From Psammoneis japonica (taxonomy: Eukaryota): 64,000 nucleotides of DNA. The translations under genes and the position numbers were made by a program. The stretch spans positions 1-64,000 of the forward strand of contig QPGO01000087.1 in NCBI GenBank assembly GCA_008632985.1, in the 5' to 3' direction. Each line of letters begins with the position of its first letter. Within the stretch, counting starts at the first letter, position 1. The notes below the pieces were generated by a model. The model did not search any database. It was not told where the DNA came from and saw only the letters and a list, made by a program, of their open reading frames with translations. This document shows positions 5,015 through 58,261 of the stretch, in pieces.

Positions 5015-5015
<1 letters not shown>

Positions 5016-5047
<32 letters not shown>
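5016..5047. repeat. (CT)n microsatellite
   Basis: Run of CT units. Confidence 0.9.
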
Positions 5048-5049
<2 letters not shown>

Positions 5050-7199: not shown

Positions 7200-8095
7200 G
7201 GTGCCCTTCTAGACTACAACAGTGGCGAATAAGACTTGTATATACTCTGCCCTTACAACCTGAATGACATGCCAAACCGAGATCAACATGAGATAATCGA
7301 AAGCAGCACATACGGTAGCAACATGGAACAGGCAACAACGCGAAACCTGACTTTCTTTGTTTGGGCGGGAAGACATCCGTTTCGCCGCCAACGGTTTGAT
7401 CGTGTAAGCTCACGAAGGTTGGATAAATCCTAAATTTTTCGCAAGATTGGTAATTGGATCAAATTGGATCTATTTGGATCTTATGCAGCAACTGAAAACG
7501 GATATGTCTAACTAAGAACTCTAAGAGTATTTATACCTTTTTACTGCATACAAGACGGAATAAAATATTCTGTACCCAATTTGCCGTGAAGAATCATCGA
7601 CTATACTGTAATAAGAATACACAGCATAACTTATATTCAATGATTTTATTCGCATACAAAGAAAAAGAATAGAGGGAACATTCCGTTTCAGTCGTACTGT
7701 AGATAGCCTCAGCGGGGGTTTTGGCGCTTTTTTCCCGGCGTGTCTCCCGCCAAGAAAGAAGGAACAATGCTTCAAACGCCCGAGCCATGCTCAATTAGAC
7801 TCTGCGTTGTGGCTTGCGGAGCGAGAATGCCAACAGCCCCCTTCAGTGTGATGGTGGCTGCAAAGCTTCGGCCTCTGAGCTCTGAACGAGCCAGCCGCCC
7901 CATCTCAGACTTTCACAGACTGGGCTGTTGACTGGGTGGCAGATCGCCAGACAGGCGCTCCGTGGCTCTCTCCCTCTCCCTTGCAGATTTCACAACCAAC
8001 CACAAATTTTTTGCAAACAAGAAAGTGCTCTCGCACACAGCCGGCACAAGGCACACAAAAGAGGGTTTTTGGTGGCAACAACACTCCTGTGCTTT

Positions 8096-8371
8096 TGACA
8101 GAAATTGAAGGCAAATGGCAAGAATTCAAACAACAACTCCTTGCTGCTGTCTAAACAGCAGATGAGTCTCCGCTCAGAGACCGTCACAGGAGCCGAAAGA
8201 CGTGTAAGTCGGTGTGATCGGGCCACTGTTGTCATTCTTGTGAGCCTTGTGGCTTGAAAGCAAACTGCATCGTGCGCGAACGCGTGGAACTGAAGCACAC
8301 AAAACTGTGCGCGGCAAACTGAACAGTGCGCGACATTTCGCGCGCACCCAAATCCTGTTCAAATCCTGTCA
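8096..8371 (-). repeat. 3' LTR of the 3.3-kb element
   Basis: Direct repeat of 11101-11376 with TG...CA ends. Confidence 0.92.
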
Positions 8372-8437
8372 CTCCCCAGTTTGCTTGAGGAGCCACAGAA
8401 ACAGATTCGACTTCGGATTGACTAAAGAACTTTGGAG

Positions 8438-10144
8438 TCAAAGCACCAAAACATGAGGAGACAAGAAAGGATCAAGATCCGAGAGCAACGTTGCATTCTC
8501 CAAGTGGGTCATCTTGAGATGAGCTGCGTCTCCCCAATTGCAGATGCCGTTGTGCTTTTCAAAGCTCAAGGCACACTTGGGATCTTGTGGGATTCCACAT
8601 CCGCGCTTGCAATGGAAGGAGCAAAACTTGGTCTGGTTGACAATGTTGAACGGTGGGGCAACATTGCAGGCGGCATGGCGTTTGCACGACTCGGGGAACA
8701 GAGCAAGCATCAGTTCAAAGGCACAAGCGGTGGTCTTGTGTTCCACCAATCCGACTGCATCTCCTGAGAGACTGATCCAATTGGAGAAACGAGTCTCAAG
8801 GTGCAAGCCTTTGGGGATCGGATTGGAGCAAGACATCTTGTGGTGCAAGGCTGCAGATGTCTGATTGGGGCAACCAGTCCCGTGCTGCAAGACTTCTGGG
8901 ATCCAAAAGGACTTGCCAGTGTTGTGACACGAGTCTTCGGGGATCCAATCAGGAGGCCAAGTCTTGAGGTGCAAGACTTGGGGGATCCAATCAGGAGGCC
9001 GAGTCTCGTGGCGCAAGACTTGAGGGATCCAATCCGGAGGCCGAGTCTTGAGGCATGAGACGTGGAGGATCCAATTGGGAGGCCCGGTCTCGAGGTACGA
9101 GACTTGGGGCATCCAATCAGGAGGCCCAGTCTCGAGGTACGAGACTTGGGGCATCCAATCAGGAGGCCTGGTCTCGAGGTACGAGACTTGAGGCATCCAA
9201 TCAGGAGGCCTGGTCTCGAGGTACGAGACTTGAGGCATCCAATCAGGAGGCCCAGTCTCGAGGCACGAGACTTGAGGCATCCAATCAGGAGGCCTGGTCT
9301 CATGGTGCAATGCTTGGAGGATCCGAAGACAACAAAGCTGCTTGGATGTCCTGAACTCCCCATCCAATGAACCGGTTGAACTGTTGTGAACAGATTCAAT
9401 GACGGGAAAAGGAGGCTCCCCATCAGGAGACACGAGAAGCAAGTTGTCACCTCCATCACTTCCCAAACGAAGACTGTGAAGGGTGACAGCGACAGAAGTC
9501 GACACGTGGAGGTTGGCAGCACGTGGTTTGTGGGGTGCAAAGACTGCAGCTTTGGAAGCCATGGGTGGAGTGTCCCAACTGGTCTCGAAGTGCGGGCCTG
9601 TGCAAGGGCTGCAATCCTGCACTGGGCCGAGGTTGCTTGCAGGCGGGTTGGTCAAGACATGCGGGGTGCGACTGACACCACTTCTAGGAGACACCTGAGT
9701 GGCGGCACAGTGCAAGGCTGGTGTCAAAATGGCACTGGGTTCATCTGGTTTGGATGGCAAGGGACTCAGCACAGGTGCGGAGGGTGCTGCGCCAGTGGCT
9801 AGAGAGGTCAAGCAGTCCGGACCAAGGCAGCAGTTGCGAAATTCCTCGGGTGTGAGCAACTGGGGTTCATTGATCACATCATCACCGTTGCAAACTTTGA
9901 CAAAGTGGAAGCTGATCAAAGCTGCTAGGAGGTTTCTGTGGGTCCGTGGCAAAGGCACTGCATTGGCGCCGTCTCTGTAAGTGAGGGCGTCAATTTGGGT
10001 GGGTGAGAACGTGAACTGTTCCTCGCACGATTCAATCCCGTTGATGGACAGGGCAGAACGAAGAGGGCTGTCATCGTCTTGATTGAGCACAGTGCCTAGA
10101 ATGCATTTGAAGCTTTCGGTTTGTTGCTGTCGCGTGAGAACCAT
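8438..10144 (-). pseudogene. Chimeric Copia ORF: Gag N-terminus + 14-aa tandem repeats + pre-RT remnant
   Basis: N-terminus (ILGTVL..DDDSPLRSAL..NGI...IDALTY) resembles diatom Copia Gag starts. C-terminal GCGIPQDPKCALSFEKHNGICNWGDA resembles the pre-RT segment. No integrase, RT or RNase H. Confidence 0.6.
8775..9305. repeat. 42-bp minisatellite, ~12-13 units (ETRPPDWMPQVSYL on the minus strand)
   Basis: Repeating gcatccaatcaggaggcctggtctcgaggtacgagacttgag units that degenerate toward 8775. Confidence 0.92.
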
Positions 10145-11100
10145 GATGGAGGACGGTGCAGTAGAAACAAAAGACAGGAACCAATCTAGAGCGCGGTCTT
10201 GACTCGGAGTTTTGACTTGGAACTTGGCTTGAAAAAGACGTGACTTGAGCCAGACTTGACTTGAAATCTTGGACCATCTTAAAATCAGAAGTCGCCGGGT
10301 TGTGCCACCCCGTTTTGTTGTTGAGTGCTAAACTTCCTGTCCGGTCCGCAGAGTTGTGCCGGCACGTCTGAACCCGCAGCTGGCGGCGCTTTGGGTTGCT
10401 TGCGAGCGGAGTGGCGGGTTGTAAACCCCTGCAGGTGAGCTGACTGGAGGTGGACAAGACCCCCGAACCGTTCTCATTTTGTGTCGGTTGGATTTCCCGA
10501 TCAGGCTGGCCAGTTGACGCAGGCGTTGGGCGCTGTGGACGAACGAACAAATGCGGGAAAGCACCCTCGCCCCAACGCAGGCTGCAATCACGGCCACTTG
10601 CTCTCACAGTCGTCCTCGTGGACCCAGTGGAACTGCAGAGCACCAGCAGTCTGGGGCAGATCAGGTGCAATGGACTCGGTGTGCTTGTAGAGTGGCAGCA
10701 AAACCGCAGTCCGAAGAGTGGGTGCAGGTTCTTGGCCGTGAAGATGTGCACATGTGTGTGTCTTCAGCGACGAAGATCCTTGAATGTGCAGGGTTCTTGA
10801 CCGTTGACCGATGAACAGGTGTGTCAAGGGATGAGGATCAAGGACAGACTTGGATGTGACCGTTGAATGCATGTCTTCAGCGATCAAAGGCAGCACAATC
10901 AATCCAGACATCCAGCGGCAAGGAGACTTGACGGTGACGTTAACTTCCTGCCGATGCCCTGGCATTGAATGCGCGTAGACTTGCCGATGCATGTAGAATG
11001 TGTGCGGAGGTCCACGTGGAATTGAGGTGGCGTCGTTGGTAAATCAACGACGACGATGGCGGTTGCTCAATGGGTTGACAATGAGCAAAGACTGTTAATC

Positions 11101-11376
11101 TGACAGAAATTGAAGGCAAATGGCAAGAATTCAAACAATGACTCCTTGCTGCTGTCTAAACAGCAGATGAGTCTCCGCTCAGAGACCGTCACAGGAGCCG
11201 AAAGACGTGCAAGTCGGTACAATCGGGCTGCTGTTGTCATTCTTGTGAGCCTTGTGGCTCGAAAGCAAACTACATCGCGCGCGAACGTGCGGAACTAAAG
11301 CACACAAAACTGTGCGCGGCAAACCAAACAGCGCACGACATTTCGCGCGCACCTAAATCCTGTTCAAATCCTGTCA
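11101..11376 (-). repeat. 5' LTR of the 3.3-kb element
   Basis: Direct repeat of 8096-8371 with TG...CA ends. Confidence 0.92.
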
Positions 11377-12189
11377 GCTTTGACCAAATCACAGCGTGTG
11401 TGACAAACAAATGACAAAAAATCCAGCTTCCAAATGCTGCAGCACCTTTGCCCAGCAACGCCAGCACAATCTGGCTCTGCTTTTCCACAGCTCACTGGCC
11501 AGCATGGCAGAAGGGAAAAAGTTTGGCAACACAGACAGCTGGCCAGATGACGGCGTGGGTGCCGTGAAGCATGGCACACCTTGAAGGCTGCTGCTCACCC
11601 TCAGCTCTGGGCCTGTTCCAGCTCCAGGTGATCTGCTTTTCATCACATGAGAGGCCAATTTTCTGCGCAGTTTAGCACAATTGACTCCTTCAATTTTGAT
11701 CATTTCGAAAATCGAAAGGTGAGTGTGCACCCGAAAATGCACGCAAAGTGCACACTCGCCCTTCGATTTGGCAAAAAACGGATTTGGAAAAAGTCAATTG
11801 CGCCAAATGCACAAATTGCCAAATGATGGAAATTGAACCCACGCGGAGCACCTGGAGCTGGAACAGGCCTCTGCCACAGCAATCCAACTCTGACTTTTTT
11901 CAGCCAAGCAAGCCCCACGTTCTTCTCAGCCAAGTTTGCAGCATCAGCAGTGCTGCGTGATCTTTTCAGCAGAGGATGCTCTTGGTGCTCCCTTTTGTTG
12001 CTGACAGCAGTTGACTCTGCCTCCATGAGACAATGTCAAGCAGATGATTGTGCCGCTGGCATGCAGCGCTTTGGTTGGGATCTTTCCACAGCTCCTGCCA
12101 GCTCTCCCAAATGACCGAGTGGAGCTTGATTTGTGCCAGCCAGTCAGAGGGTCTTTTTTTGTTCTCAGACTGGTGAGCACAATTGCTGC

Positions 12190-12800
12190 CGAAAAAGACC
12201 TGAGCTGACCAAATGAGCCAATTGGATCACTTTTCAAAAGTCAAAAAATGACCATTGAAAAACTGATGCCAGCCTGTGTCATTCTGGGCATCCCACAAAG
12301 ACTGGAGCCAGCAATCTGTCTCATCCAAACAAACCATCTCCCCCCACTGAACCAAGCTTGCACACAGGGAAGATGACAGAAGCCAAAATGTCAGAGACGA
12401 GGAGGTGTTGAACCCAGTTTGTTGCAACAGCCCTGCAAACCTTGCAAGAACTTCCAGCACAAAGAAGATTCACCAGCCAGGCATGAAAGAATGTGGTCTC
12501 TGTGTTTTGTCAGAGACTCACAAGACAAGCAACAACGGCGGGGCCAGACTGGGTTGCATTGACCTGCAGCCAGCAACCTCATTGGTTGGGAGCAAGTCAC
12601 AAGCCATCTTCACAGTGCTGGCATGATGCAAACCTTCCAGCCCATGACATCCACAATGTCAGGCCACCATCAATTGTTGTGTTCCAACACATGCTTCAGT
12701 GGGGGGGGGGGGGGGGGGGGTTGGTGGCTGCACTGCAGATCTGTTTCTTAAAGTTTGGTGCAATTGCCTCATTGTGTCCAGTGACAAGCAGAACAAACAA
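12190..12800 (-). mobile_element. Non-LTR (LINE-like) retrotransposon C-terminal remnant
   Basis: CLSCESLTKHRDHILSC (CCHC-like) followed by LWDAQNDTGWHQFFNG, resembling the C..C....H...C / Q..IGW....G tail of diatom LINE ORF2. Confidence 0.5.
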
Positions 12801-13361
12801 ATGATGGCACTGCCAACAATCTGCCAGCAGCAGCCTCCTTGGACCTTCAGCTTGTTGCTCTGTTTGGGAAGAGATCTGGAGTCAGGGGCTTGGTGAGAAA
12901 ATTGGCCTGTTCACAAGTGGGCTGGGCGCCCACCTTGTTGACCATGAGGACATGACAAACTTGTTGCCGTGGGGGCATTAGAGCATGCGTTGTGGTGATC
13001 TAGACCTCCTTTCTCGTGGCCATGTTTCTTCCTTGCATTTGAAAATTCTGTGGTTTCAAACCTTGACAGTTGTGTGTGTTGTGATGACATGTCAGCTGTT
13101 GCAGTCAAGCATTTTTGTGCCATGAGGTCTGACCCCCCCAGTCCCATGAGGAAACCATGCTTCACAGTGAAACAGCCACCCATTTTCCCTGTGAGAGTGC
13201 CCACCCTCTGTCCCTGCAAAACCTGCAAATTAAAATCATTTGCATTGCAAATGTTCCATTTTGTTGTTTGCATTTAATTTGGATGATGCTGGCGGAAACA
13301 ACAACACGCCAGTTTGCAGCAGCTGCTGCAGCTCTCTTTCTTGAAGTGCCACTGCTGGCAG

Positions 13362-13825
13362 CCACCTTGTTTGTTGCCAAAAAGTGCAGAGCATGTTGTG
13401 AGAGCACAATGTGGATGAAGCAACACAACCAATGGGAACGGCAAAATGAGCTCACCGGTGCATCCGGCGCCGCTGGTTCTGGAGCAGGTGAGTTTGCAGC
13501 AGGAGCTGCTGTTCCATGATTTGAACTGCTGTTGCTCTTGTCCACCTTGTTCACCGCCACAAAGTGCAGAACATGTTGCGAGAGCATGGCATGGATGAGC
13601 CAACACAACCCACAGGAACGGCAACATGGACTTGCCAGAGCATCTGATGCCACTGATTGGAGCAGGTGAGTTTGCAGCTCAAGTGCTGTTGCTCTAATCC
13701 ACCTTGTTCATTGCCAAAAAGTGCAGAGCACATTGTGAGAGCACAACATGGATGAACCAACATGACCAATGGGAGTGGCAAAATGGGCTTGTCGGTGCAT
13801 CTGGCACCGCTGATTCTGGAGCAAC
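13362..13825. repeat. Three diverged ~160-180-bp tandem units
   Basis: ccaccttgtt...aagtgcaga...ggagca units starting at ~13362, ~13542 and ~13699. Confidence 0.8.
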
Positions 13826-14163
13826 ATGGGCACCAGTGTGCGGTGCATGACATTGAGCACCCAGTTCCACCCCTGTGACTAAAAGAAAACACAGAAAGAA
13901 AGAATGTGAGCAAGCAAAAAACATCTCAAGGGCCACAGAATTTACTTGATGCAATGGCTGTGGGAACAAGCACTGCCTGCATCTGCACCACACTGCACAA
14001 GGCGCCACATGAACAACAAAGTCATGCAGCAATGACCAAGTTTGTCCCGCACCTCCCATGCTGCACATGGTTTGTTGATGACACATTTGGAGCATGGACC
14101 AGAAACAGCAGAGAAACAACTCAGGCAACCTCCATTGGGTCTCCTCCCCACTCTCTGCCTCTG

Positions 14164-14520
14164 CAGTCTTTCTGGATCTGGACAAAAATTGGAGAAGACG
14201 GGTGAAACATCAGCGAACATGTCAAAAACCAATGAACCTCTTTTGTGCACACCTTGTTTGAACAGTGTTGTTTGTGGCACATGCACCATTTCACACGAGT
14301 GATTCTGAGAGCTGTGGGAACAAGCGCCACCTGCAGACCTTCTGGATCTGGACACAGAAATTGGAGAAGACAGATGCATTGTCAGCGAATGCACAAAAAA
14401 ACCCAATGAACCTCTTTTTGCACATGCCTTGTTTGAAGAGTGTCATTTGTGGCAACTTGTGATGATTCTGGATGCAAAACTCTGACTTGTTGTGATTCTG
14501 GATGCAAAACTCTGACACGT
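14164..14520. repeat. ~170-bp duplication plus a ~31-bp duplication
   Basis: tctggatctggaca...aattggagaagac...aatgaacctctttt occurs twice; tgattctggatgcaaaactctgac occurs twice. Confidence 0.75.
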
Positions 14521-15382
14521 GCAATCATGCCAACGCTGCAGAAAAGCTTGTGATGTGCATGCACACAACAACATGCCAGAGCATGGCATTCTGGATGACG
14601 ATGATTCTGGGATGCAGTGGATTCGTGACAGCACACTCGCGTTCACAAAACTCAAGTGACACCCCAATCAAAACCCATCTTGACCAACCAAAGGGGGGGG
14701 CTCACCACAAATTGAGCTGTTGTCATTGGCCAATGGGGCAAAGTCTTTCACAGCCATGGCTGGTTGCTGATTTGCAGATTTGCAGCCACACATGGAATCC
14801 ACATGAAGTCACAACAGCACACGCTCTCATTTTTTTTTATTTTTGGGGAGGGGGTGTGCTGGTGTGAAGTGTGTGGAAAAATGTGCATGTAAAAAAGTGC
14901 TGAAAACACCACAGACCAATGGCTGCACAAATCTGGGAAGCAGCAAAGAGAAATTTAAAATGAGGGTGGGTCATGGGCGTGCGTGAAGCAGACTGCAAGC
15001 ATGCAAAGACACAGGCACATGAGAGTGGGGAGGACAAAGTTAAAACAAGTTCAAATTGATTGCCATTAAAACCAAACCATGCATCACAAAAAATGAATTT
15101 CTGTCCCAGCTAAATTGAAAATTGCGCGCACTTGATTGAAGCTTGTGCAAGAAAAGCCAATGAGACATCAGATGAAAAGCACAAAACAGCTGCATTTTGT
15201 TGAGCACTTTTGCTGGCATTTTTCAAATTCTGCTTGTTGACAATTTTGACAATGCACATTAAAAAATTAACAAAGGAAAGTGGGGAGACCACTGTGTTGC
15301 AGCCTCTGATGGGCAGAGCCAGCACACCACTTGATGAGTGGGTGCATTTGGCACAGCTGGCAGTGCACAGTGTGGCTGGTTG

Positions 15383-15498
15383 CCAGGTGGAGCACACCTG
15401 GGTTGTCTTCAAACATTTGTGCATGAGCAGAGGTCCTGGTTGCCCGGTGGAGCACACCTTGGTTGTCTTCAAACATTTGTGCATGAGCAGAGGTCCTG
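15383..15498. repeat. 60-bp tandem duplication
   Basis: ggtggagcacacct.ggttgtcttcaaacatttgtgcatgagcagaggtcctg twice at 60-bp spacing. Confidence 0.85.
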
Positions 15499-18089
15499 AA
15501 GGAACACACACATCCTGACCAACAAGACTTCTGGAAGCAAGTGTTTTTTTTCAAATGCAAAAGTGCGCAAAGCATGTGAGGAGGCAGGAGGAGCTTGCCA
15601 CTTGGGCAGCTTCAAGGGTTCTTGAGCACAAATGAGCTGACTGAAGATGCAACTTCCATGCCTGATGCCAGCATGAGATTGCACAGAGTTGTCCAAACCC
15701 AATTCCCCCAATCAAAGAGAGCTGCCAAGCCAGCATCAACCTGCCAGCCAAGACCTGACAAGCTCATGGGAAATGAGAACATGATGTCTTGGCTGGTGGC
15801 AAGTTCTCTTGAGGCACATCAAAAACCAGAGTCTTGGCAGCAGCCGCACAGGGTCATTTGGGGCTCAGGTTGAGCCTTGCAATGTGGCTGGTGGCAAGAA
15901 ACAGGTCAGGGCAAGTGTGCTGGTTCACAAACAGCATGACAACATTCTGGCAAAACTCCAACAATCATCTTGCATTGGTCTTCTTTTGAGGTCACTGTGG
16001 CTGCCAAGAGCCTCTTGATTGAGTCATGACCTGGCTGGGGAGCAAATTTGGCTCAGAAATGATCTGCTGGCAAGCAGCAAACTGCCACTTGGCCAGGCAA
16101 TCTTTGCAAAACTGTGCCAACTGAAATTGTGAGCTGTCCAAGGAAAATCTGGCAACTGCCGAGAAAGGCTGTTCTCTCAAACACCTGTGCTGGCAGCAAG
16201 GAGGACAGCCATTTCCACAACAAGCAACCTGGCACTGATGAAGAAAAGCTCCTGGGCACAACTCGCAGTGAGCAAGGTTTAACCAAAGAGTCAACCACAC
16301 TGCATCAACCCAGCCAAGCATTGTCTTGAGTTTGCATGCATGTGCCTGCACTGTTTTTGTTGGTTTTGGCTGGTGTGTGTTTCTTTTCATTGCTTTGCTC
16401 ACTCCCAGCTCATTTGGCTGATGGCCTCTGATGCTCTCAAAAAGTCAATTTGTTGTTTCACTTGCCAGCCAAGCAGCATCATGGTTGGTCTCCTGAGTGA
16501 AAGAGCAGAGGGTGGGGAACCATGTCAATGAGAAAAAGAGTGTTCCTGGTCTGCATTGTGACATCACAAGTTCCCTCTGCAAACTGCTGAACTTGGCACC
16601 CACCATGCTGCATTGCCAGGGCTGAAATTGTCAAACAAGTCACCATTTTGGGGAGGTGTTGTAGAGCAACAATGAAGAAGACACTGACTTGTGCATGGAG
16701 GAATGGCAGCAGTGACCAGTGGATTGCAGCAGCAGCAGGAAGGTTTGGCAGATCCAGCTGCGCCATCATCTGTTGCTGTGGGCCTTGTTGAATGGGTCAA
16801 ATCCAGACATCTGCTGACCCAAACAGAGCCAATTGTCACCCAGTTGGATGCTTGTTCTTTTCTGAGCTGGGTCCCAAAGAACAGAAATGTGACTGTGATT
16901 GCTGCCAGAAAGTCAGTTGGGGCCATTGAGCACAAGGCTCACAACACCTGCAGCACAAACAAAAATTTGGCTGTCACACAGGAGCTCACACAAGAGTGTG
17001 CCCCTGTGCAAGGGGGGCTCTCATCCAAAATGAGGCTCATTGCTCTGCAACAGAAGGTGCCAACAAAGCTGCCAGATGCATTGGTTGATGGCTCTCTTGG
17101 CTGTCAGTGCCAATTTTGATGCAGAAGGCTGAGGGATCAAATCTGCACCAGTCTCTTGCTGGTTTTCCCATGCTCTGTTTTTGTGGTGGCAACTCATTGT
17201 GTAAAAACATTCAAAGAGTTGTCATCCCTTGTTTCAGACAAGCTGAGACATTTCTTCCATTGTCAAACAAAAGAGAGAACAAATTGTGCCATGGAAAACA
17301 GAAACTTTGCTCTTTGTCTGTTCCCTTTTTCTTTGACTGCTTTTGCCTGGAGTGCACCAGCCAGGGTTGGAACAAATGACCAGCATCAGCATCTTTGTGA
17401 CCCCCTCATTTTCACATGCTGATCTTGTGCTTGGGGCCTCATTTCTTCTCCAGCACTGAACCAAACAAGATGGGCCCAGGTGACAAGCCGCCTCAAGCAC
17501 AAACACAACACCCCAAACAAAGTTGGGCAAGTGCCCTCTCCAGTGGTGAGGCCATGATTGCACAGAATTGTCAGGAGCTCAAAACACAAAGAAAGCCTGA
17601 CCTGTGCTGGTGGCAAGCACCACCCCACTGCACAACATTGTTGGTGAGGCACAGCCAGCATGTGACAAAGGAGTGGCCAGAACACCAGGATGATCATGGT
17701 GGCAGCAATGCACAAACAAGCACAGTGGCCAAATGTCAGAGTGTTGCAGCCGTCTTGCCAGCTGGCACACATTTGGCCTCACCAACCCTGAACTCACCGT
17801 GTGGCTTGACTTGCTGCCATGTCAACCAGGTGCAGAAGCTAAAAAGTGAGCATGAGACCTGCAACCCAAACCAAGTTGCAAATGTCTGTTCACCACATTG
17901 TCCACAGTTGTCAGTTTGTCTTTTCACTGCAATTTTGTCGGTCTGTTCCATGAAAACTGCCTCTGACCCAAATGTTCCAATGCAGTCCTTTGCATGGGCC
18001 ATCAATTGACTGCACTTGTGTGCATCAAGCACAGGAGGATGACACTTGGAATCCATGTCACCCATGATCTGCATCATCTGACTCTGCTT

Positions 18090-19100
18090 GCAAACAATGT
18101 TGTCAGGGCAATGCTTTCTCACATGCCCAACCTTGTCAAATTTCTGGCACTTTGTCTGTTGCTTCTCAATCTGCACAAAACTTGCACCCTCAGGTTTCTT
18201 GTTGGCCCTGCAGGTGTCCAACACCTGCAGTGCCTCCTCAGCCAAATTGGGGCAATTTGTCACCCCCCATGTGAGCTGCCGATGCAGGTCTTTCAAGACA
18301 AGCCAATGTTCTCTGGCACCTTCCATTGGCATCACCACTGACAACTTGTTTTCTTTCTCCATTCTGGGCATCATTGGCATCCTTGCTGAGCCCATCTTCT
18401 TTCTTCTTGACAATTCCTTCCTGGATGATCCTGCCACAGGACATTTCTGCCACCTCAGCAAACAATGCTCATGAACCAGGTGCAACAATCTCAAAGCACC
18501 TCTCCTTCATCTTGATGAATGAGTGCAAACTGCTTCCAAGCCTTGCCTGCCTGGGGACATGTGGGCTTGTCTTCTCATTGCATCAAACAAGATCAACTTG
18601 AAAACTTCCGGCAGTGCTGCCATGCCCACTCCTTCACAACTCTTGCAAACTCCATCACTCTTTTGTTCTTGTGACAAAGGCCTTTGCACATTGCCCCACA
18701 ATTGTGATAAATGCCCTCACCTTCTGCCTCTTGTAGACCCCATTCTGTTTTACACAGTGATTGCCTTGCTTGTCCCAGATTGCCTTTTCCTTCTCCAACA
18801 TGGTGCACCCCAACAGATGATGATGCTCTGGCTCTTTTAGCATGCTGTGCTCTCCTGCTGCCTCAGAGAGGCCAGCAGCACCTGCATCTCTTGTCCAAAC
18901 ATTTTTCTGACATGCTTGCCAATCTTCCTCATGGTTTCCGTGTGACCACCTGCCTGCTGCCCCAACTCCGCAATGGCTTCTTGCACCAACTCCTTCTTTC
19001 GTGCTTCTGCACTCAGCTGTGTGTCCTTGCCCACATTTTCTGGGACTTGTGTTGGAGTGTCATGGACTGCCAACAGCCACACACTCAGTCTTGCCAACCC
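18090..19100 (-). mobile_element. Decayed Copia gag remnant
   Basis: TIVGQCAK; LKDLHRQLTWGVTNCPNLAEEALQVLDTC (consensus L..DL...G...YP.T..EA..LL..Y); degenerate zinc knuckle CQKFDKVGHVRKHCP. Confidence 0.65.
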
Positions 19101-19238
19101 TGACACAACCTTGCCACACCCTCTTTCAGCAGACTGTTGGCAGCTTCTTTGACAGCAAGGCCCTTCAGAGACTGCTGTTTCTTTGCCCTCGTCCAGCCAG
19201 CTTGTTTGCCACAATCCACCAACACAAGATGCACCTTT

Positions 19239-19322
19239 GGATTCCTGACAACTTCCCAGCCTGTGTTCCTGGATTCCTGACAACTTCCCAGCCTCTTTTC
19301 CTGGATTCCTGATGATTTTCCA
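19239..19322. repeat. 31-bp tandem repeat, ~3 units
   Basis: ggattcctgacaacttcccagcct repeated. Confidence 0.75.
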
Positions 19323-21959: not shown

Positions 21960-23877
21960 GCTGCGGGTGGAATGTCAATCTGTTCGTTGCTCTACGCCAT
22001 CCAAACTTCAATCTGGAAAGCAGCACTTTTGATGACATGTTTCACCCTTGGTGACAAATCCCGTGAACTGCACTACAGTCAGTTGGGTAGGTGTGGCACA
22101 TTGACAATTGTGACAGCACCATTGTCACAGTTGTCTGCTTGCAAAGGATTTGGGAAACCTGTCACCACTTTCAGCGTCGTCCTTTTGGAGTTAAAAGTGC
22201 ATCTCACCCCATGACACTGTGGTGACTGGTGTCATCATGGCCATGGTCTTGCCTTTGACATTGGCTGCAAATGGATTGGCTGCAGATTTCCTTCTTGACA
22301 AAATGTCAGACCACCGTTGCCCAGCCAACTTAACCAACCACCAACCCAGCAGCATCAGAGTGGTGAACCCCAATGTTTTCCACTGCTTTCTCTATTTTGA
22401 AAATTTCTCCAACCACATTTTGGGTTCAGTTTGAGGCAGATGTGTTGATGAATCACAGCAAGAGACTTTCTGTTGCACAGCCAAGTGGGCAATCTGTTTG
22501 ATTAGATGTCACCTGGTGAATGACAGCACCGAGCAACAATGCACTTCCTGAACATCCATCTGTCCCAAGTGTTGATGCCAAGGACAATCAGGCAATGTGT
22601 TGATGAATCACAGCAAAAGACTTTCTGTTGCACAGCCAAGTGGGCAATCTGTTTGATTGGAGGATGTCACCTGGTGAATGACAGCACCAAGCAACAATGC
22701 ACTTCCTGAACATCCATCTGTCCCAAGTGTTGATGCCAAGGACAATCAGGCCAAAGGCCTTGTTGTTGCTTGCAGTTGTCAAGTTTTTGAAGCTTGACCT
22801 TGCTTGCAGCTTTTTGACAGCCATCCTTTCCCACCAGCACAACAGAGAGGAAGAGCTGTACAAAGCATGCATGGGCATCAATGTCTCCCCAACCTTGGGA
22901 CATTTCACAGAGGCTTGTTGGCATGTGCAGTGCATTGGAGGAGAGGAGCCCTCCTCAGCTCCTCCAGCAACCTTCTCCCAGTGACCTTCCTCTGTGATCT
23001 GCACAAAGATGATGGCAGCACAGTCACAACAAAACAGAGACTTGCTGAAGAAGGGCTTTTTGTTCCATTTCTCTTGTGGCACTGCTTCTTTTTGTGGCAA
23101 CAATTGGCTGGTCCTTGTCTCTGGTCAACTCACATGCAGAGACATCTGGGGAACTTTCCTTTCAGTGGCTGCAGCTCTTGCTTGCAGCTGTTGTGCACAA
23201 ACATCTGCCACAATGCACCATTTGGTGTGCACTGGGGGATTGATGAGCTTCACCTTTCTGAACAGTGTGCACTTGGTTGACACAGCTCTCAATCATTGCC
23301 TTGCCCCCAACTGCTTGTTCTTGTGATGTTCTTGAAATGATTTCTCTTTTCTTCTTGTCAGAGGAGCTCAAACCCAATGCTCAAAGACAGCACAGGGCTC
23401 AATGCACTCTTTCAACAGATGCCTGCAAAGATGAGGAGCTTGCAAGTTCAACCTGCTTTCTCTTTTCCAACATCAGGTGGTGGCAACACATTGGCCACAG
23501 CATTGCAAGGACTCTCTGTGTTTTGTGTTGCTGCTGACACAGCCAGCTGCTGCTCGTCCTCCTCTCATCATTGTCATCTCCTGACAACTGGCCATTGCAA
23601 GCATGGCTTGAAGTGTTGGCAGCAGCAACAGCAGCAGCTGCCATCATTGCTCAAGGGACCCCACACTTCTCTGTGGCAGCCCCCCACACCTTCTCCCTTC
23701 CACTGCTTGCACGGCTGCATTGCTGGCATGGCTGCTGCACATCTTTTGTTGCACGCTGATCTGCTGCCACTGACTGCCATGTGTGTTGACAGCATGCATC
23801 TGTTGTGGGTCAGCTTGCAGCCAAGCTTTGGCCACACTGTTGTGCAGGAGGCAGACTTTTGAGTGCGCACTCCACAT

Positions 23878-23912
<35 letters not shown>

Positions 23913-24830
23913 AGAGCACAAATCTTGGCCTGTTGACCTCGCCGCACATGCCTTGCTCAGATTTTGTTCCAAAACTGCAATGCAACATGGGTCCTTGCCA
24001 AAACCCAATGGGTTCAACAACAAATTTTCCAAGAACTCGCCACTCTTGCCCTTTTTTTGACTTGCAACACCTTGTTCGGCATTCTGGCGAGGCACGATGA
24101 TGAAAATGATGGGTTTGTGCAAGATGATCACATGAGAACAAAAAGCCTCTTGCATGAAGTTTGCTGCAATCGTTTGCCATGCACCCTGATGGCTGCCACC
24201 ACCCATGGTGTTCTTTGTCTCATTGGCTTCTTGATCAAAACACACCACACCCCTCCTCTCACACACACAGCTGCNTTCTGGCGAGGTGCAGTGACAAAAA
24301 TGATGGGGTTGTGCAAGATTGATCACATGAGAACAAAAAGCCTCTTGCATGAAGTTCACTGCAATCTTTTGTCATGTGCCTTCATGGCTGCTGCCACCCA
24401 TGGTGTTCTTTGTCTCATTGGCTTCTCGCTCAAAACACACCATTTCCCTTCTCTCGCACACACAGCTGCTGGCTGCTGCCACCTCTGACTTCATTTTGCA
24501 CTTCTTTCCACATGTTTCTCATTGCTCTTGCTCAATGTGCTTTTTAAAATTATGGACCTCAACATTGAAGGCACTTGAGAAGGGAATGGCTGGGTGTTGG
24601 GTGTGCTGCACTCTCTGGGAGAGCAGGAGCTTTGTGAGAAGTGTGCCGGCTTGTGTGTCCTGCCTGTGTCGCAAATCTTCTTGAGAGCTTGAGCTGAGCA
24701 CTGGGCTGAGTTTGAATTGTTTTGTGCTGGGAATGACTTCAGTGGTTAGAGCCCCCCCTCACTTAGGCCCACAAATCCCTTCCTCTGTGGTGGCCCCTGC
24801 TCTCTAGGGCCACTAGCGCCGCCGCTGATG
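21960..24830. repeat. TpA/CpG-depleted degenerate block
   Basis: Almost no TA. Contains a ~155-bp tandem duplication (22436-22750), (CA)n at ~23879-23910 and a ~195-bp duplication (24100-24470). Confidence 0.8.
23879..23910. repeat. (CA)n microsatellite
   Basis: About 16 CA units. Confidence 0.9.
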
Positions 24831-51235: not shown

Positions 51236-51256
51236 GGTTGCGTTATGTGTGCTGTG

Positions 51257-51490
51257 TGTGATAACTCTCGTCTGAGAGTTAGGAGAAGTCGACGGAAGGT
51301 CGAGTCGTATTGCTAGCAGTAGGGCTAACAATAGCGATAGAATCGATAAAGCTGCTAATGTCTTGTTACACTAGGTGTTGTAATTGTGAGCAGAAAAAGG
51401 GGAGAAGTTCTCCAAAAGAAGGGCGGGAACCGCATACGGTACGTAAGTGAAGAGCGCGCGAATCGCGCATGAGTTCGTACTGTGTTGACA
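51257..51490 (-). repeat. 3' LTR of the 7-kb Copia
   Basis: Direct repeat of 58026-58261. Confidence 0.93.
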
Positions 51491-51510
51491 CTCCCTCTCG
51501 AACGAAGAAG

Positions 51511-54500
51511 CTACCAACCGCAAAGCAATTTGCGAATAGACTCAAATTTGACTGTGACGAGTCCTTTTGTTAAAATGTCAGCGCGTTGCAGGTCTGTTGC
51601 GATCTTGGATACGGTAACTCGGTTTGGTTTCAGCTGTGAACGAAACCAGCGACACTTGATTGCGCAGTGCTTGGACCTTGGCGCAATTCGGCCAGGTTCC
51701 ACGTCAGCCAGAGTCAAGGCTCCAGCATTGTCCTCCCACACGGTGGTCCTGATGGTCTTGGTGGTCCCTGGACCAACTCCAATGCCTTGGGAAATGGCTT
51801 GTACAGTGCGAAGAAAGGGAAGGACAGTGTTCATGCATGTGGAGAGAGCACTGCACACTCTGCTTCCATTGTTGAGAGTGCGATCTCGGGTTCAAGCTTG
51901 CTGGACCAGATGACAGGACAGTTTGAAATGCAAATGACAAATCCTGTTCAGCTCTTGACACAAGCCGGGTCTTGCTTGTCTTCATGCAGCCACAATCCAG
52001 CAAAATCTGAGTCTGCAAAAACATCAATGTTGAAGTCCCCAGATGGCTTGAGGATTGAACCTTCCTCCAATGTGCCTTTGAGGTGTCGGCCGATCCTCTC
52101 GAGGGCTTGTTCATGTGAGCGGCGTGGACTGTGAACAAATCTTGCGGCAGAGCTAACTGCACAGGTGATGTCGGGCCTTGAATGGCCCTGGAGACACTGG
52201 AGCATGCCAACAACACTGGCATGATTGAAGGCTCCATTTGGTGGGTCTCCATCGGTGTCCTTGACCAATGGAGCAGCTAGCGCGGGTGTTCGGGCCTTTG
52301 GCAGATGGCCCACATTGAGGGCTTCGACGACACGCTTGGCTGGGCCGCTCTGGGTGAGCTTGACAGTGCCATTGTCGGTGTCGCAATGGATGTGGACGCC
52401 TGAAAAACCTGCGACGGAATCCTCGACTTCGATGGCCAGACTGCCATCAATTTTGAGTTTTTCAATCACTTCGTCGATGCACTCTTGCTTTGGTGAAAAG
52501 AACAATGTGTCGTCAACATGCACAAGGCAGATGACCTTGTCGGACACAAAGAGACACGGATCAACATCATCTTGAGATTGAAATCTGGCGTCTTCAAGTT
52601 TTGATTTGAGGTGCAGGAAAAAGTTGTGTGGTCCTTGCTTGAGACCACACACGGTCTTCTTCAGTCACAGCACTTTGCCAGGCTTTGTGCATCTGCAAGG
52701 CATTTGTGTGAACACACCAGAGCATTCCCGCTCTTTGGGTGTCACAGCATCCCATTTGGGATTTTTGTCAATCGGAGCATGCAGGAAAGCCGTGACACAA
52801 TCAACTTGCTTCATGGAGAGCTCAAGAATCTGAGAAAGCATGAGCATCAGCCGCACTGTTGTCCAATTAACAACCGGAGCAAAGGCATCAAAACAATCAA
52901 CACCTTCCAATTGCTTGTCACTGCGGACACAGAATTGAGCTTTGTGTTTTTGGAATGACCCATCAGGGTGCCGTTTGCACTTGAAGGCCCAAGTGGATGG
53001 CAGAACATTCATCCAATCTTGGCGGTCGACTTCCTCCCAAGCATCTTTGCCTTTGACAAGGGAGTCAATTTCGACATCACAAGCCTTGAGATGGGCTGCA
53101 CGATTGGGTCCACTCACAGCTTCTTCCCAAGCAGGGTTGTTGGCGGAATTTGCATTAGCTGCTGGAGCCAGAGGATGCATTTCTTCAAGTGTGCCGTGAA
53201 CTTGATCGGCATTTTTGTTGAAAAGGTTGATCACAGCACGCAAGTCTTTTGATTGGAGTGTGTTTGTAACGCTGTCCCACTTTGGTGCCATCAGAAACTG
53301 CTTGTTGAGTGTCTCTGACTCAACCATTCGTTGGGGATTCTTGCAGGCTGTCGGCAACTCGTTTGGAGGAATGCGAACATCAGCCGTCATGGCTTCAATG
53401 AGGCGGTCCGGTTTCTTGATGGCACGGCCGCTGCGAGTCCGAGTGGCAATGGCAGGAGTGTTCGGAGCCGCTTGAGTGGGCTCAGCGATGTCTGAACCAA
53501 GATCCAAGTCTTCAGGCAAGTCGTGATGGTTGACCAGGGACAATTCGTCATCGCTGTCATCACTGGGCTCATCGATCTCGACTCCCTCTGGAGCCTCTGA
53601 AGTTGCAGATGCCAGATAATCCGATGATTCAGGATCAGTGGGAAGCTCTCCCTCTGGAGCTGTGACGGAAGAGGTTGGTTGAGGAGGGGTTTTGCCAGGA
53701 GGGGCGCGCTGTTGGCGGTGTAACTTCCGCGCCTGACAATGGTTCTCGCGGTGGTGGCGCTCTTCAGGCATCAGCCAATCGTCATGCAGTGCGGGCAAGC
53801 GATGGCAAGGGTCTTTGGAAGGCTCGTGGTCAAGAGTGTGGTTGACTGCGGAGTCAGCAGCAAGCAGGGACTCCCAAACATCAGTGGAGAAAGGGACGTC
53901 CTGAAAGCACCCCCCAGAGTTGCTGTTGGGTGCGGTGGAGAAGTGGTTGTCATAGACCACATGGCATTGAGGGCTAACACAGCCTGTCACAAGGTTGAGG
54001 ATCAGGCCAATGTTCGTAGAATGAGCCGGGGAGATGCCAAGGCATTGGCCGCGACAACTGCATGGATCCCACTTTGGAACTTTCTTGCCATCCTGTAGTT
54101 TGGGATCTAAAACATGCGTGGGACAGCCCCACACCTGCAAGTGCTGTAAATGCATGTGGGAATCAAAGTGTTGCTTGGAACAGATCTCGACAGGAGCAGT
54201 GCGAGTGTCAATTTTCGGAAGATGATTCCACAAACAAGCGGCGTGAGTCATGGCAAAAGGCCAAATTTCCAGATTGGCTGCATCAGGCCACACAAGGACG
54301 GCATGGAGCAACACAGATCTTGCCCATGAGGTGATGGTTTGTGTGGAGCGCTCGGCGATGCCGTTTTGATGATGGGCACCAACACCAGAGAAGTCGATCG
54401 TCTGGTGGTTTTCTTCGAGATCTTGCATGAAGGCCTCAGAGCCGAAAGGCACATTGTTGGCAAGGCATTGCTTCACCTGGACCCCAAATTGGTCACTGAG

Positions 54501-56626
54501 CTGCTCAAAGGCGCGCTCAGCATGCACAGTTTCACCTGCAGTGAGACCAACTTGATGGGTCAGGAACACACAGCTAGAAGCATGATCGACAAAAATCGTG
54601 CGCCGCTGCACTTGTCTTTCTCAGGTTCACGCCCCTTGGTTGACGGAAGATGGCCAGGGATGCAGCTGATGTGCTGGTCAATGGAGACGCATTGACCTGG
54701 AGATAAATCGCCCTCTTGCAACACCATGGGCGGAGGTTTCGATGCACTGCGGCGGTCCGGAGTGCACCGCTTTTGTTTGGCCAGTTGACAGGTGGCACAT
54801 GATGGAGGTGTGCAACCTGCCACCGCATTGGATTTGGGTTTAAGGACTTGGGATTTGGCAGGATCCCTTGGGATGGCACTGAGACGTTGGATGTGTTGAA
54901 AGCCAGCGCGACCGAGTTTTTGATGAAGCAGCAGAAGCTCCTTTTGACCTGGAGCAAGGTTTTGATTCGTCTGTGAAGTGACGGACAAGAAGGCATCCAG
55001 TCGGTCTGCAGTGCTGATTGGAGCCAAATTGCACCTGGAAACTCCAGCGGATGTCGGTTCGGACATCATCATAAAAGGCAAGTTGCTGTCCTTGTTGTGC
55101 GGGAATTCAAGGGTGTCACCACTCGGGAGAGTTGGGGCGGCTTTGTTGCCACGCACTGAACATTCACCTTGATTTCCATTTTCTTGAAAACAGGTTTGCG
55201 GGCTGAAAAGGCGGACAGAGGTGTCAGGGACGTAACAAGCCTTGGTGCGGACGGTGCGCACAACGTTCCAACAGTCGATTGCATCCCATTTGACGTAACC
55301 CTGACCCACAACACGAGCAGCAGAGAACAATCCCTTGATCATGGTGAGTTCTGCAGGTTCAAGAGGGCCTGTGAAGTCACTCAAGTGCGGAGTGAGAGAG
55401 GAAGAGGCGCTGGCATCAAGTGCCACGGGCACATCAACAGGTGAGGCTGATGACAGAGCTTGACATTGTGAGCTGTCAAGATGTTGTAAATTGGCTAACG
55501 ACTTGATTGGTTTTGTCAAATCTTCGGAGAGCCAAGGTGGATCTGGCAAGAATGCGTCAGTCAGGGACGGTCCAAATGTCAAGGTTTGGTGGGAGAACAT
55601 GGCTGCGCCGCCGAAACCAGTCAAACAGGTTGCTGCTGTCATTTGAGACAGATTGGTTGCTGTGCAGGAGAGAGCAGGTGCTTCTCCGCAAGCTCGTAGC
55701 ATGTCCTTTGAGGCAAGTGCTTTGATCACAAGAAATTGTGCAAGAGGGTCAATTCCTTGCACAAACTCATCCAATGAGATTCCAAACTGCACGTCGTCCA
55801 TGATCCAGGATTGGTGCGGCAGTCGGTGTTTGATGCGGGCAAACTCTTTGAGTTCGTGTTCTTCGGGGTCGTCCGGTGGTGCAAAATTGGAGGGCGCTGT
55901 GTCAGTGGGATTGAATTCAGCAGACTCAGTCCGCAGGTGATTGCCCAGCAGATCCAGCAACATGACAAAATCAGTCAGTGTTGCACTGTGCAGCAAATCG
56001 TACATCTCAGAAGGTGGATGTAGGAGTTGATGATTGATTTGTGCATGAGCTTCGTTGGCTTCTTGAATGGGATCAACGCAGACAAACCCAGGCTTCTTGG
56101 GTTTCACAGGCTTGACTCGACATCTTGATTTTAAGAGTTTCCAGGACTTGGATCGGCGACACTGCTTGAAATTGGTCTCTGCGACGGCAGCATCATCCGG
56201 CATGGGTGCTTGACGTGTGTGGCGCCAAGTCATTGGATGAAGGAAGGAACAAGTGGGGTCTCTTTGTGGGAATCGAACTGGACGACGGTCCAAACGACAA
56301 ACTTGCGCGTGATGACATAATTTGTGGCGCGTCTGACGATGAGGATGATGATGATGTGGATTGTGTTCCAAGGACGAGGTGACAACAAACCAAGGCATGT
56401 CATCGTATGAGAGCAAAGGATTCCTGGAAAAGAGCAGCAAGCAGAAAAACAATCCACCTGCCAAAACAAAAAGGAACTGCAAAACAGCAGAGACGTCTGC
56501 TTCTCCTCCCTCTCCAAGAATCTGGAGAGCGAACCATAAGAAGAGGGACTGCGCCGCAGTCACACAAGCCTGGATGTCCCTTCCAGGAAAGGTTGTTTTG
56601 CTGAAAAGCGAAAAAGAATGGGCCAC
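51511..56626 (-). pseudogene. pol: Copia pol (protease, integrase, reverse transcriptase, RNase H), disrupted
   Basis: VALDASAS, HQKLG..C..C, HHQNGIAER, WGCP.HVLDP, FAPVV, CGLKQ, LVHVDD, EDNAGA, ADILTK; in-frame TGA stops and frameshifts. Confidence 0.92.
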
Positions 56627-56656
56627 ACGCTCAAAGAAGGAGGCGCGCCCAAAGCT

Positions 56657-57960
56657 TCAGGTGAAGGAAGCAAAGAGACCAGCAATGGTCTCGGCGACCT
56701 CGCGCTTGGCGTTCGTGACAGCCACTTCGCGGTCCGGATGCGGAGCGGAAGCAGGGGCCAGAGCAGGGGCAGGAGCAGGTGCAGGAAGTGCTGGGGACGC
56801 AGTGGCAGCACCAGCAACTTGAGCAACAGGGCGCCAGTGCTTGGTTTTGTAGTGATGACAGTGGTCTTTACCATCAATGTTGCGGCGACTGTCATTGTTC
56901 TTCTCGGCTTCAGCCGGTGGTTGCCATTTCTTAGGAATGGTCTTGATCGGCTCACCATCCTTCCTGGAGGAGGAATTGTTTTTGTTTTGGGCCGTTTCGC
57001 ATCGAAAAATGGTTTCTTGTTTGCACGCACTCGTGCATCGTCGATGGGCTGCTTGCAGTCGGAAAGAGGATGAGGGCCACCACAATTGAAGCAGTCAACT
57101 CTTCCGGCAACAAATGCGGTTGCATTCTTCTTAGCAGTCACGCCGGACCACTGGTCGGAAGATGCAAGGGCCAGGTGTCGAGCCTCCGTGAACTCAAGGA
57201 GATCAGGCATGGATGTGGCACTGATGCTCGGACCACTGGACTTGAGCTTGGAGATTTGAGAGTCCTTGGTGAGGTGGTCAAAAAGGGAATTAAATTCCGG
57301 GACGCTGGAGGTCTGGAACACCTTGGTGAGGTTTTCCATGAAATCAGAAGGAATGACAGACTTGCCTTTCTGATCCTGGAGGTTCTGGAGTCGAGTGCAT
57401 CCACCACGGATGAGTGAGACGACTTTGCTGACGTCTTCACCATCGAAATTGGTGATCTTAAGCGAGATGATGTTGGCAACCAAATGATGAGCAGCCTCCT
57501 CGGAGTTGCTCTGCAAGAATTTCATCACAAGTGAGAAAAAGAGAGGTCCGCCTTGCTCTTCTTGTGGACACTTGAGGCATGTCTCGTTGACTTTCTTCTG
57601 GAGGGCATGAGAGGCGTTCCTCTCAAAATGGTCACAGGTGAGACGAAGGTTTTGGCTGGCCCAGGTCCCATCATGGTCCTCAAGCATCGCAGCACACCAC
57701 TTGTTGCTCTTCGCGACTTCGGCTTCGGTGATCGTCGAATGCTCGGTGCAGAGATCACGAGTCTTGAAGGTGACAGGATCAACAATTTGGAAAACATCGT
57801 CCACATCGCACTTAACGTGGTTTGACCGCATGGTCGAGATGGACACAGCCAGATCACAAGTGTCTTCGAGCTTGTCTGGATCGTTGATGTTGAAATTTAG
57901 GAGGTCGAAACGCGTCTGCAGTTTCGCAGCAGCTCGTAAAAATGTACGGAGCTCACTTCT
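56657..57960 (-). pseudogene. gag: Copia gag, disrupted
   Basis: QGGPLFF, FDGEDVSK, FQTSSVPEFN, zinc knuckle CFNCGGPHPLSDC; one frameshift after the knuckle. Confidence 0.85.
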
Positions 57961-58025: not shown

Positions 58026-58261
58026 TGTGACAACTCTCGTCTGAGAGTTGGGAGAAGTCGACGGAAGGTCGAGTGGTAATCGCATTGCTAGCAGTAGGGC
58101 TAACAATAGCGAAAGAATTGATAAAGCTGCTAATGTCTTGTTACACTAGGTGTTGTAATTGTGAGCAGAAAAAGGGGAGAAGTTCTCCAAAAGAAGGGCG
58201 GGAAACCGCGTGCGTAAGTGAAGAGCGCGCGAATCGCGCATGAGTTCGTACTGTGTTGACA
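58026..58261 (-). repeat. 5' LTR of the 7-kb Copia
   Basis: Direct repeat of 51257-51490. Confidence 0.93.

What the first reader, a model, noticed from the sequence alone, without database searches (positions are those of the whole stretch)
51620..57930. TpA loss is uncoupled from, and precedes, CpG loss
Seen: the structurally intact 7-kb Copia has lost most TA but keeps many CG (e.g. 52321-52380 has several CG and no TA). The fragmented blocks at 11.9-19.3 kb and 22-24.8 kb have lost both. Inference: two processes converge on TG/CA, a fast TpA-directed one and slower 5mC deamination. Their ratio would give an internal clock for repeats.
Basis: partly seen in the sequence, partly recalled or inferred. 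Interest (0 to 1): 0.7.

Follow-up and report, generated by a model that had tools for sequence, protein, structure and literature searches.

The report
Fast TA erasure outruns CG decay
In this diatom, jumping-gene DNA has its TA steps rewritten to TG or CA tens of times faster than it loses its CG steps. Both changes fall in the same targeted stretches, which points to a natural DNA-editing defence working alongside ordinary methylation decay.

Summary
The order is confirmed; 'uncoupled' is not. The Copia at 51257-58261 has lost about 85% of its TA and 30% of its CG sites since insertion. The old blocks have lost both.

In 16 young copies of a second Copia family, scored against an unchanged natural copy, 1514 of 4122 TA sites but 179 of 5701 CG sites were lost. 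Three more families agree. Young copies inside CG-dead blocks keep their CG, so age, not place, explains the order.

The two losses share a target: CG loss rises from 0.9% to 5.8% with local TA loss, a hazard ratio near 46 (34-69; clear in one family only). Both LTRs here escape both. The A>G ranking (TAC>TAT>TAG>TAA, both strands) matches TadA-type base editors.

Best reading: a DNA adenine deaminase and slower 5mC decay act in the same silenced domain. No enzyme or methylation is shown. The ratio is no clock: TA loss runs from 0 to 100% within one element and saturates early. The copy is not intact.

The TpA signature is known from Bigelowiella natans, and this scan found it and the order before on other DNA of this genome.

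The parts
51252..51256 (.). Target-site duplication, left copy (CTGTG); right copy at 58262-58266
   Evidence: flanks printed
51257..51490 (-). 3' LTR; spared from both losses (17 TA, 17 CG); ends 21 bases from an in-frame ATG of the MSS51-domain host gene
51491..51499 (-). Polypurine tract next to the 3' LTR
   Evidence: read from the sequence
51621..57935 (.). Erased domain: 37 TA (5.9 per kb, against 60 and 43 per kb in the spared edges); about 85% of TA and 30% of CG lost
51706..53129 (-). Reverse transcriptase and following pol region; Pfam RVT_2 split over two stop-to-stop frames by a stop at about 52665; Tyr-poor
53931..54946 (-). Pol region upstream of RT, by position the integrase; matches residues 399-720 of the pol of a natural Copia copy
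   Evidence: tblastn; Pfam SH3_retrovirus below cut-off; integrase label inferred from Copia gene order
56560..57920 (-). gag-like region (by position; no Pfam match)
   Evidence: inference
57934..57935 (-). Site where this copy lacks about 613-620 bases of 5' leader present in related copies
58026..58261 (-). 5' LTR; largely spared (12 TA, 16 CG); the pair differs by 4 TA-type changes, 1 CG-type change, 1 transversion and short indels
8087..11376 (.). Internally deleted copy of another Copia family (F3) with 285-base LTRs; intermediate stage: in the 1.5 kb compared it keeps 630 of 716 CG and 111 of 488 TA comparisons
11900..19300 (.). Old block, both steps lost (TA o/e 0.05, CG o/e 0.135)
12973..15312 (.). 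Dispersed 2.3-kb repeat inside the block; 12 copies compared, all with TA o/e 0.05-0.09 and CG o/e 0.16-0.30; median pairwise transversion distance 4.4%
22000..24800 (.). Block with both steps lost; no dispersed copies beyond its first 470 bases, so undated
4050..5350 (.). Small block with both steps lost (TA 0.04, CG 0.10); undated

Best explanation
After a transposon inserts, part of it is taken into a silenced domain that widens over kilobases. Two chemistries then run in that domain. (2) CG sites, probably methylated by a DNMT5-type enzyme, decay to TG or CA tens of times more slowly and keep falling for much longer. 'TpA first' is therefore a rate difference inside one shared target, not two independent processes. 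Shown: the order, origin after insertion, strand symmetry, context ranking, CG specificity, shared domain (one family, the LTRs of this copy, the window plot). Inferred: the deaminase, the methylation, widening in time, a defence role.
For: Order: 1514/4122 TA against 179/5701 CG lost in 16 young F1 copies, with 0-4 transversions each in 3970-5180 sites; 19 copies of three more families lost 21-80% of TA and 1.6-7.3% of CG. After insertion: in 27 LTR pairs of elements with inner CG o/e of 0.8 or more, TA differs in 202 sites and is kept in 214, CG differs in 29 and is kept in 482; outcomes agree between copies at 676 of 1111 sites, well short of inheritance. Age, not place: five F3 copies with flank CG o/e 0.03-0.43 keep inner CG 0.90-0.93. 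Shared domain: CG loss 16/1871, 10/829, 12/530, 43/1065, 64/1104 across rising local TA loss; hazard ratio 46, bootstrap 34-69; LTRs of this copy against its interior p=0.0003. Enzyme fingerprint: in hit zones TAC 566/978, TAT 305/682, TAG 190/647, TAA 109/519; non-T AY leak 75/6474 against 12/9085; non-T AR at background; sense and antisense rates about equal per context. ABE editors are best at TAY and worst at MAR (PMC10879117, passages). C>T is raised only at CG, 107/4317 against 20/4928, and not more next to a mutated TA. The genome has ADAT2-like, TadA-like, DNMT3-like and DNMT5-like genes. DNMT5a loss removes transposon CG methylation in Phaeodactylum (PMC9998398, passages).
Against: The within-copy coupling is clear only in F1 (likelihood ratio 84); it is weak in F2a (4.6) and absent in F3 (1.9) and F2b (2.3), which have almost no unhit bins. 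In the first F1 sample the middle bins lost only 7/563 CG, no more than the low bins. Inner CG o/e did not track LTR-pair transversions alone (rho -0.14, p=0.37); it did track transversions plus other transitions (rho -0.41, p=0.008). No methylation or inosine data exist here. ADAT2 and TadA are housekeeping tRNA enzymes (established knowledge), so their presence is weak support. A>G at TAY cannot be told from T>C at RTA. 5mC was not hypermutable in Prasinoderma, on few mutations (PMC11884799). The 5' context of CG loss differed between young and older copies.
Confidence: 0.6

Rival explanations
1. One mutator makes both changes: a dual A/C deaminase, or a methyltransferase-linked deamination step, with CG as a minor substrate.
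For: A roughly constant hazard ratio in young copies and identical spared edges follow directly. The B. natans preprint cites ADAT2 enzymes that edit both A and C in DNA. The genome has many C5-methyltransferase matches (27 matches).
Against: C>T is confined to CG, with no rise at TC or other contexts (33/13455 against 33/16688). CG losses are not closer to mutated TA sites. In B. natans 230 of 231 mutations in the two regions were A/T>G/C, although so few would barely show a 1:46 side activity.
Confidence: 0.17
2. The TpA change is not enzymatic adenine deamination but follows a base modification or damage (a modified A, or a modified T in RTA) with biased repair or error-prone copying in silenced chromatin.
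For: Sequence data cannot say which base of the pair was hit. No dedicated DNA deaminase was identified among 10 PF00383 and 4 PF02137 matches.
Against: The full context ranking, including the weak non-T AY leak and the AR background, matches TadA-derived editors. Transversions and non-CG C>T are not raised in hit zones, which speaks against sloppy synthesis.
Confidence: 0.14
3. One reading: two independently targeted processes whose ratio dates a repeat.
For: The order is right. Across 25 F1 copies CG loss follows transversion distance (rho 0.77). Three of four families give no firm within-copy coupling.
Against: CG loss almost never occurs without TA loss: windows with TA o/e of 0.4 or more and CG below 0.6 number 0 of 64, 1 of 71 and 2 of 308. 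Within-copy coupling in F1 is strong. One element can hold 0% and 100% TA loss.
Confidence: 0.06
4. TA poverty is inherited from the source element, comes from RNA editing or RT error during retrotransposition, or is an assembly artefact.
For: Every internal stretch of this family fetched is TA-poor. Raw counts in F1 favour TA>TG on the sense strand, 379 to 267.
Against: F1 copies with identical LTRs have normal TA (o/e 0.70-0.72). LTRs of one element differ by up to 14 TA sites with 0-1 transversion. The strand excess vanishes once context is fixed. TG-versus-CA mismatches imply 30-39 lost TA per kb in this family, near the 43 per kb of an unchanged copy. Short-read contigs follow the window with 0-3 other letters (probably the same sample).
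Confidence: 0.03

Closest known systems
TpA-specific hypermutation of integrated NCLDV and virophage DNA in Bigelowiella natans (Mettrop et al., bioRxiv 10.64898/2026.01.13.699255; parts 1-3 of 5 read, plus a term search; supplements not seen)
   Same: T/A>C/G transitions on TpA, giving TpG and CpA; regional; spares host genes; TpA-poor coding sequences there are enriched for transposon domains; an ADAT2-type enzyme is proposed.
   Different: Here the host is a diatom and the targets are multicopy LTR retrotransposons and other repeats. The process has run to its floor (115 of 200 windows in ten arbitrary stretches have TA o/e below 0.2). Hit and unhit zones lie inside single elements, a 3' context ranking is resolved, and CG decay shares the domain. 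The preprint's main text has no occurrence of 'CpG', 'diatom' or 'clock'. No rate per generation was measured here.
DNMT5-dependent CG methylation of diatom transposons (PMC9998398, passages) with 5mC deamination
   Same: CG-only C>T loss confined to repeats; a Tudor + methyltransferase + SNF2 gene is present.
   Different: Methylation was not measured here, and it cannot make TA>TG/CA.
Repeat-induced point mutation of fungi (established knowledge; also described in the B. natans preprint)
   Same: Repeat-directed, both-strand, dinucleotide-specific transitions that cripple transposons, tied to cytosine methylation.
   Different: Opposite direction: RIP is C>T and creates TpA. Here young copies 98-99% identical to their siblings can be untouched, and hit zones cover only part of the shared homology.
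TadA-derived adenine base editors (PMC10879117, passages)
   Same: A>G in DNA, best at TAY, worst at MAR.
   Different: Engineered and Cas9-guided; here natural, kilobase-wide, much stricter for a 5' T, enzyme unknown.

Membership tests
B. natans-type TpA hypermutation | T/A>C/G transitions almost only on TpA, both strands | tested here: met
   TAN 21-58% against about 1% at other AY and 0.2% at other AR; strands about equal per context
B. natans-type TpA hypermutation | Confined to foreign or mobile DNA, host genes spared | tested here: met
   host DNA TA o/e 0.47-0.55; sharp edge at 51621
B. natans-type TpA hypermutation | Acts on chromosomal DNA after integration | tested here: met
   LTR pairs; largely independent outcomes between copies
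B. natans-type TpA hypermutation | About 1000-fold raised rate per generation, active in only some lines | not testable with these tools
   needs mutation-accumulation lines; per site, TA loss (37%) exceeds transversions (at most 0.08% per copy) by several hundred-fold or more in young copies
B. natans-type TpA hypermutation | Same enzyme (an ADAT2 homologue, itself only proposed) | tested here: inconclusive
   ADAT2-like and TadA-like genes present; activity unknown
5mC deamination at methylated CG | C>T raised at CG only | tested here: met
   NCG 107/4317 against 20/4928; other C 33/13455 against 33/16688
5mC deamination at methylated CG | A CG methyltransferase is encoded | tested here: met
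   Tudor + methyltransferase match + SNF2 on G000:C76; DNMT3-like gene. That PDB 7R76 is fungal DNMT5 is recalled; the call names it Rad8
5mC deamination at methylated CG | The decaying CG sites are methylated | not testable with these tools
   no methylation data; one search listed only contig runs
Fungal RIP | C>T transitions, mostly CpA>TpA, raising TpA | tested here: not met
   TpA falls; non-CG C>T not raised
Fungal RIP | Triggered by pairing of duplicated sequence in the sexual cycle | tested here: inconclusive
   near-identical copies can be unhit or hit in part; life-cycle link not testable
ADAR or APOBEC editing of retroelements in transit | One-strand bias, fixed at insertion and shared by both LTRs | tested here: not met
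Ty1/Copia LTR retrotransposon | LTR pair, target-site duplication, RVT_2 RT downstream of the rest of pol | tested here: met

The most novel reading that the evidence does not exclude
Diatoms carry a natural DNA adenine base editor of TadA/ADAT2 type that is recruited to the same domains as DNMT5 CG methylation and widens along newly inserted transposons: a reverse-direction counterpart of fungal RIP, shared with Rhizaria. TA loss and CG loss would then be the fast and slow hands of a clock of time since silencing.
Probability: 0.4. Interest if true: 0.9.

Novelty: new variant of a known kind. Interest (0 to 1): 0.66.

Why it matters
If the reading holds, a eukaryote edits adenine in its own chromosomal DNA on a genome-wide scale, with the motif of laboratory base editors, and aims it through chromatin that also decays at CG. 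Copies caught with hit and unhit zones give a direct test bed: methylation, small RNA and inosine maps can be laid on known zone edges. It also warns anyone dating or annotating diatom repeats. LTR divergence is dominated by TA changes, loss of TAA and TAG makes dead elements look open, and CG o/e drops by about a tenth from the G+C rise alone.

Tried and rejected
CG made from TA by double hits: 0-2 per F1 copy; CG gains 3-18 against losses 13-168 in six hit copies; rejected as the reason CG is high. Neighbourhood as the reason: rejected by F3 copies in CG-dead flanks; a modest place effect is not excluded, since the three nearest copies keep 0.51-0.61 of CG where this copy keeps 0.62-0.70. 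Transcription-linked strand bias: vanished with context. A general 5'-to-3' front: seen in F1 (pooled TA loss 0.76 near base 1250, 0.07-0.11 beyond 5500) but not shared by F2a, F2b or F3. Collateral damage from repair: no distance effect (13/180, 43/885, 47/733, 17/384). A calibrated CG-to-transversion clock: ratios ran from 12 to 386, and the 8-11 kb element is 4% transversions from F3 with only 12% CG lost. An ACG preference as a sign of 5mC: ACG highest in young copies, TCG in older ones; dropped. Dating 22-24.8 kb: no copies. Exact look-up of three host frames: none found. The methyltransferase frame on C1 stayed unclassified. No RNA holder listed. No empty-site joint in the two runs laid; contigs cannot prove absence. 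Paper searches for this signature in diatoms gave only the B. natans preprint; listings served for leads.

Full report
Setting. The window is G000:C86:1-64000 of a 91.4-Mb assembly. Named relatives of a host gene are diatoms such as Trieres, Fistulifera, Seminavis and Fragilariopsis. The finding lies in a minus-strand Copia element: LTRs at 51257-51490 and 58026-58261, a CTGTG target-site duplication, RVT_2 matches.

The observation. TA o/e is 0.10 and CG o/e 0.64 in 51620-57930, against 0.05/0.135 and 0.06/0.125 in the two blocks and 0.55/1.04 in host DNA. The copy is not intact: about 613-620 bases are missing beside the 5' LTR, a stop splits RT, and Tyr is nearly gone. Two single-base gaps near 54600 and 56992 are not supported by the short-read contigs over them and may be assembly errors. 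By sites, the copy keeps 128 of 183 and 132 of 189 CG of its two nearest relatives, at 1.0-1.6% transversion distance. Its original TA count is estimated from TG-versus-CA mismatches; 12-16% survive. Of the 37 survivors 3 have the context that is fast on both strands.

This family showed no unchanged copy among the 11 related copies aligned, so I used a second family, F1, found through an RT search (150 of 804 candidates scored, biased to well-kept copies). Two F1 copies have identical LTRs and normal composition (TA 0.70-0.72, CG 0.92-0.93). I projected 27 copies on one of them, used two as a site mask and scored 25. Sixteen young copies (under 0.1% transversions) lost 0-73% of TA and 0-7% of CG. 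Three copies at 0.33%, 0.52% and 2.2% lost 91%/17%, 91%/28% and 92%/57%. Two at about 1% lost 69%/18% and 41%/13%. Three at 4-6% lost 90-94%/44-56%. TA thus reaches its floor while CG is near a sixth lost. Nineteen copies of three more families (column tallies; two singletons, L032 and L110, left out) lost 21-80% TA and 1.6-7.3% CG. The 2.3-kb repeat in the 12-19 kb block is older by the same rough measure: 12 copies, median 4.4% transversions, 60 of 272 CG comparisons kept. The 22-24.8 kb block could not be dated.

After insertion, and by age. LTRs are identical at insertion (established knowledge). Among 42 pairs, the 27 from CG-rich elements differ at 202 TA sites (214 kept) and 29 CG sites (482 kept). 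Five F3 copies sit in flanks with CG o/e 0.03-0.43 yet keep 0.90-0.93 inside, with TA at 0.17-0.26. DNA nested in a related copy on C27 has more CG (0.65-0.72) than its host element (0.43-0.50). Against a tidy age series, inner CG o/e did not correlate with LTR transversions alone (p=0.37), only with transversions plus other transitions (p=0.008); LTRs are short and often spared.

Not uncoupled. In 500-base windows, CG o/e below 0.3 goes with TA below 0.2 in 54 of 54 (ten arbitrary stretches, 200 windows), 22 of 22 (this window, 128) and 129 of 130 (transposon-centred loci, 1010). TA below 0.2 with CG of 0.8 or more occurs 7, 3 and 130 times. Young F1 copies hold hit and unhit zones side by side, for example 25 of 26 TA lost in one bin and 0 of 28 in another. 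In 15 young copies, leaving out changes shared by more than two, CG loss rises from 16/1871 to 64/1104 with local TA loss; no within-copy permutation of 5000 reached the observed value. A hazard fit gives TA:CG = 46, bootstrap 34-69 over copies. It is a lower bound where TA saturates. The other three families give ratios of 46, 92 and 151 with unbounded intervals and little or no significance, and they have almost no unhit bins. In the window's copy both LTRs escape both losses (p=0.0003 against the interior).

The clock. A roughly constant ratio dates nothing. TA loss reads exposure only up to about 5% CG loss, then sits on a floor set by context: older copies keep 3/424 doubly fast, 46/609 singly fast and 32/159 doubly slow sites. 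Site-based CG loss is the usable slow hand, but it counts time inside the domain, not time since insertion (inference). Its ratio to transversions ranged from 12 to 386, because distance to a family reference includes subfamily history.

Mechanism. In hit zones A>G runs TAC 0.58, TAT 0.45, TAG 0.29, TAA 0.21, with a ninefold leak at other AY sites, background at other AR sites and about equal rates on both strands. TadA-derived editors are best at TAY and worst at MAR (PMC10879117, passages). I infer a TadA/ADAT2-type deaminase acting on DNA. ADAT2-like and TadA-like genes exist, but tRNA editing alone would account for them. C>T is raised only at CG and is indifferent to nearby TA hits, which fits methylation. 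A Tudor-methyltransferase-SNF2 gene matches the DNMT5b layout described in PMC9998398 (passages). A caution: 5mC was not hypermutable in Prasinoderma (PMC11884799, abstract and passages). How the domain is aimed is open. In F1 it peaks in the 5' third whatever the flank; other families differ.

What is known. The TpA signature was measured in Bigelowiella natans (bioRxiv 10.64898/2026.01.13.699255; abstract, introduction, results and discussion read). Its main text does not mention CpG, diatoms or a clock. Its supplements could not be seen and may bear on the context ranking. Five searches found no account for diatoms; the library lacks most subscription papers. The scan's earlier notes on this genome state both the erasure and the order; a word search for the coupling found none.

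Verdict. Real, and a new variant of a process reported once. The order is secure. Independence and the ratio clock should be replaced by one shared domain with two rates.

Noticed in passing
window 51233-51256 and 58262-58333: The element sits in a short gap between a minus-strand MSS51-domain gene (in-frame ATG 21 bases from the LTR) and a long plus-strand frame. Both LTRs are spared, perhaps because they now serve or abut host promoters.
   Followed up: partly
L114:819-2291 (G000:C79, minus): One open frame joins a CDA/MafB19-type deaminase domain to DIOX_N and 2OG-Fe(II) oxygenase domains; an unusual pairing worth a look among mutator candidates.
   Followed up: no
L061-L068, L112, L113, L122-L125: The genome has 27 C5-methyltransferase matches at about a dozen loci, several full-length; most were not classified.
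   Followed up: partly
L022 and L023, 5' flanks: Flanks with TA o/e 0.07-0.10 but CG 0.77-1.06: either young neighbouring inserts or spill-over of the erased domain beyond the element.
   Followed up: no
L033-L040, near the 5' end: The 5' leader of most F3 copies keeps TA (o/e about 0.9-1.2) while the body is eroded; likewise the first 1 kb of the DNA nested in the C27 copy.
   Followed up: partly
window 11900-16964 and L059 (G000:C126:1-5039): A second copy of 5 kb of the old block; over 4.4 kb it differs by 0.66% transversions yet at 53 CG sites (16 shared), so CG still turns over near its floor.
   Followed up: partly
L007 and L009: Two copies on C237 and C113 show no transversion difference; a haplotype or assembly duplicate.
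   Followed up: no
window 41341-43645: Large inverted duplication (arms 68-189 bases, 73-88% complementary) around a threefold 59-base repeat, in DNA with host-like TA and CG.
   Followed up: no
window 439-3681: 1080-codon frame with T4-type RNA ligase, tRNA-ligase phosphodiesterase and kinase-like domains.
   Followed up: no
window 8790-9366: 42-base tandem array of at least 10 units inside the deleted F3 copy.
   Followed up: no
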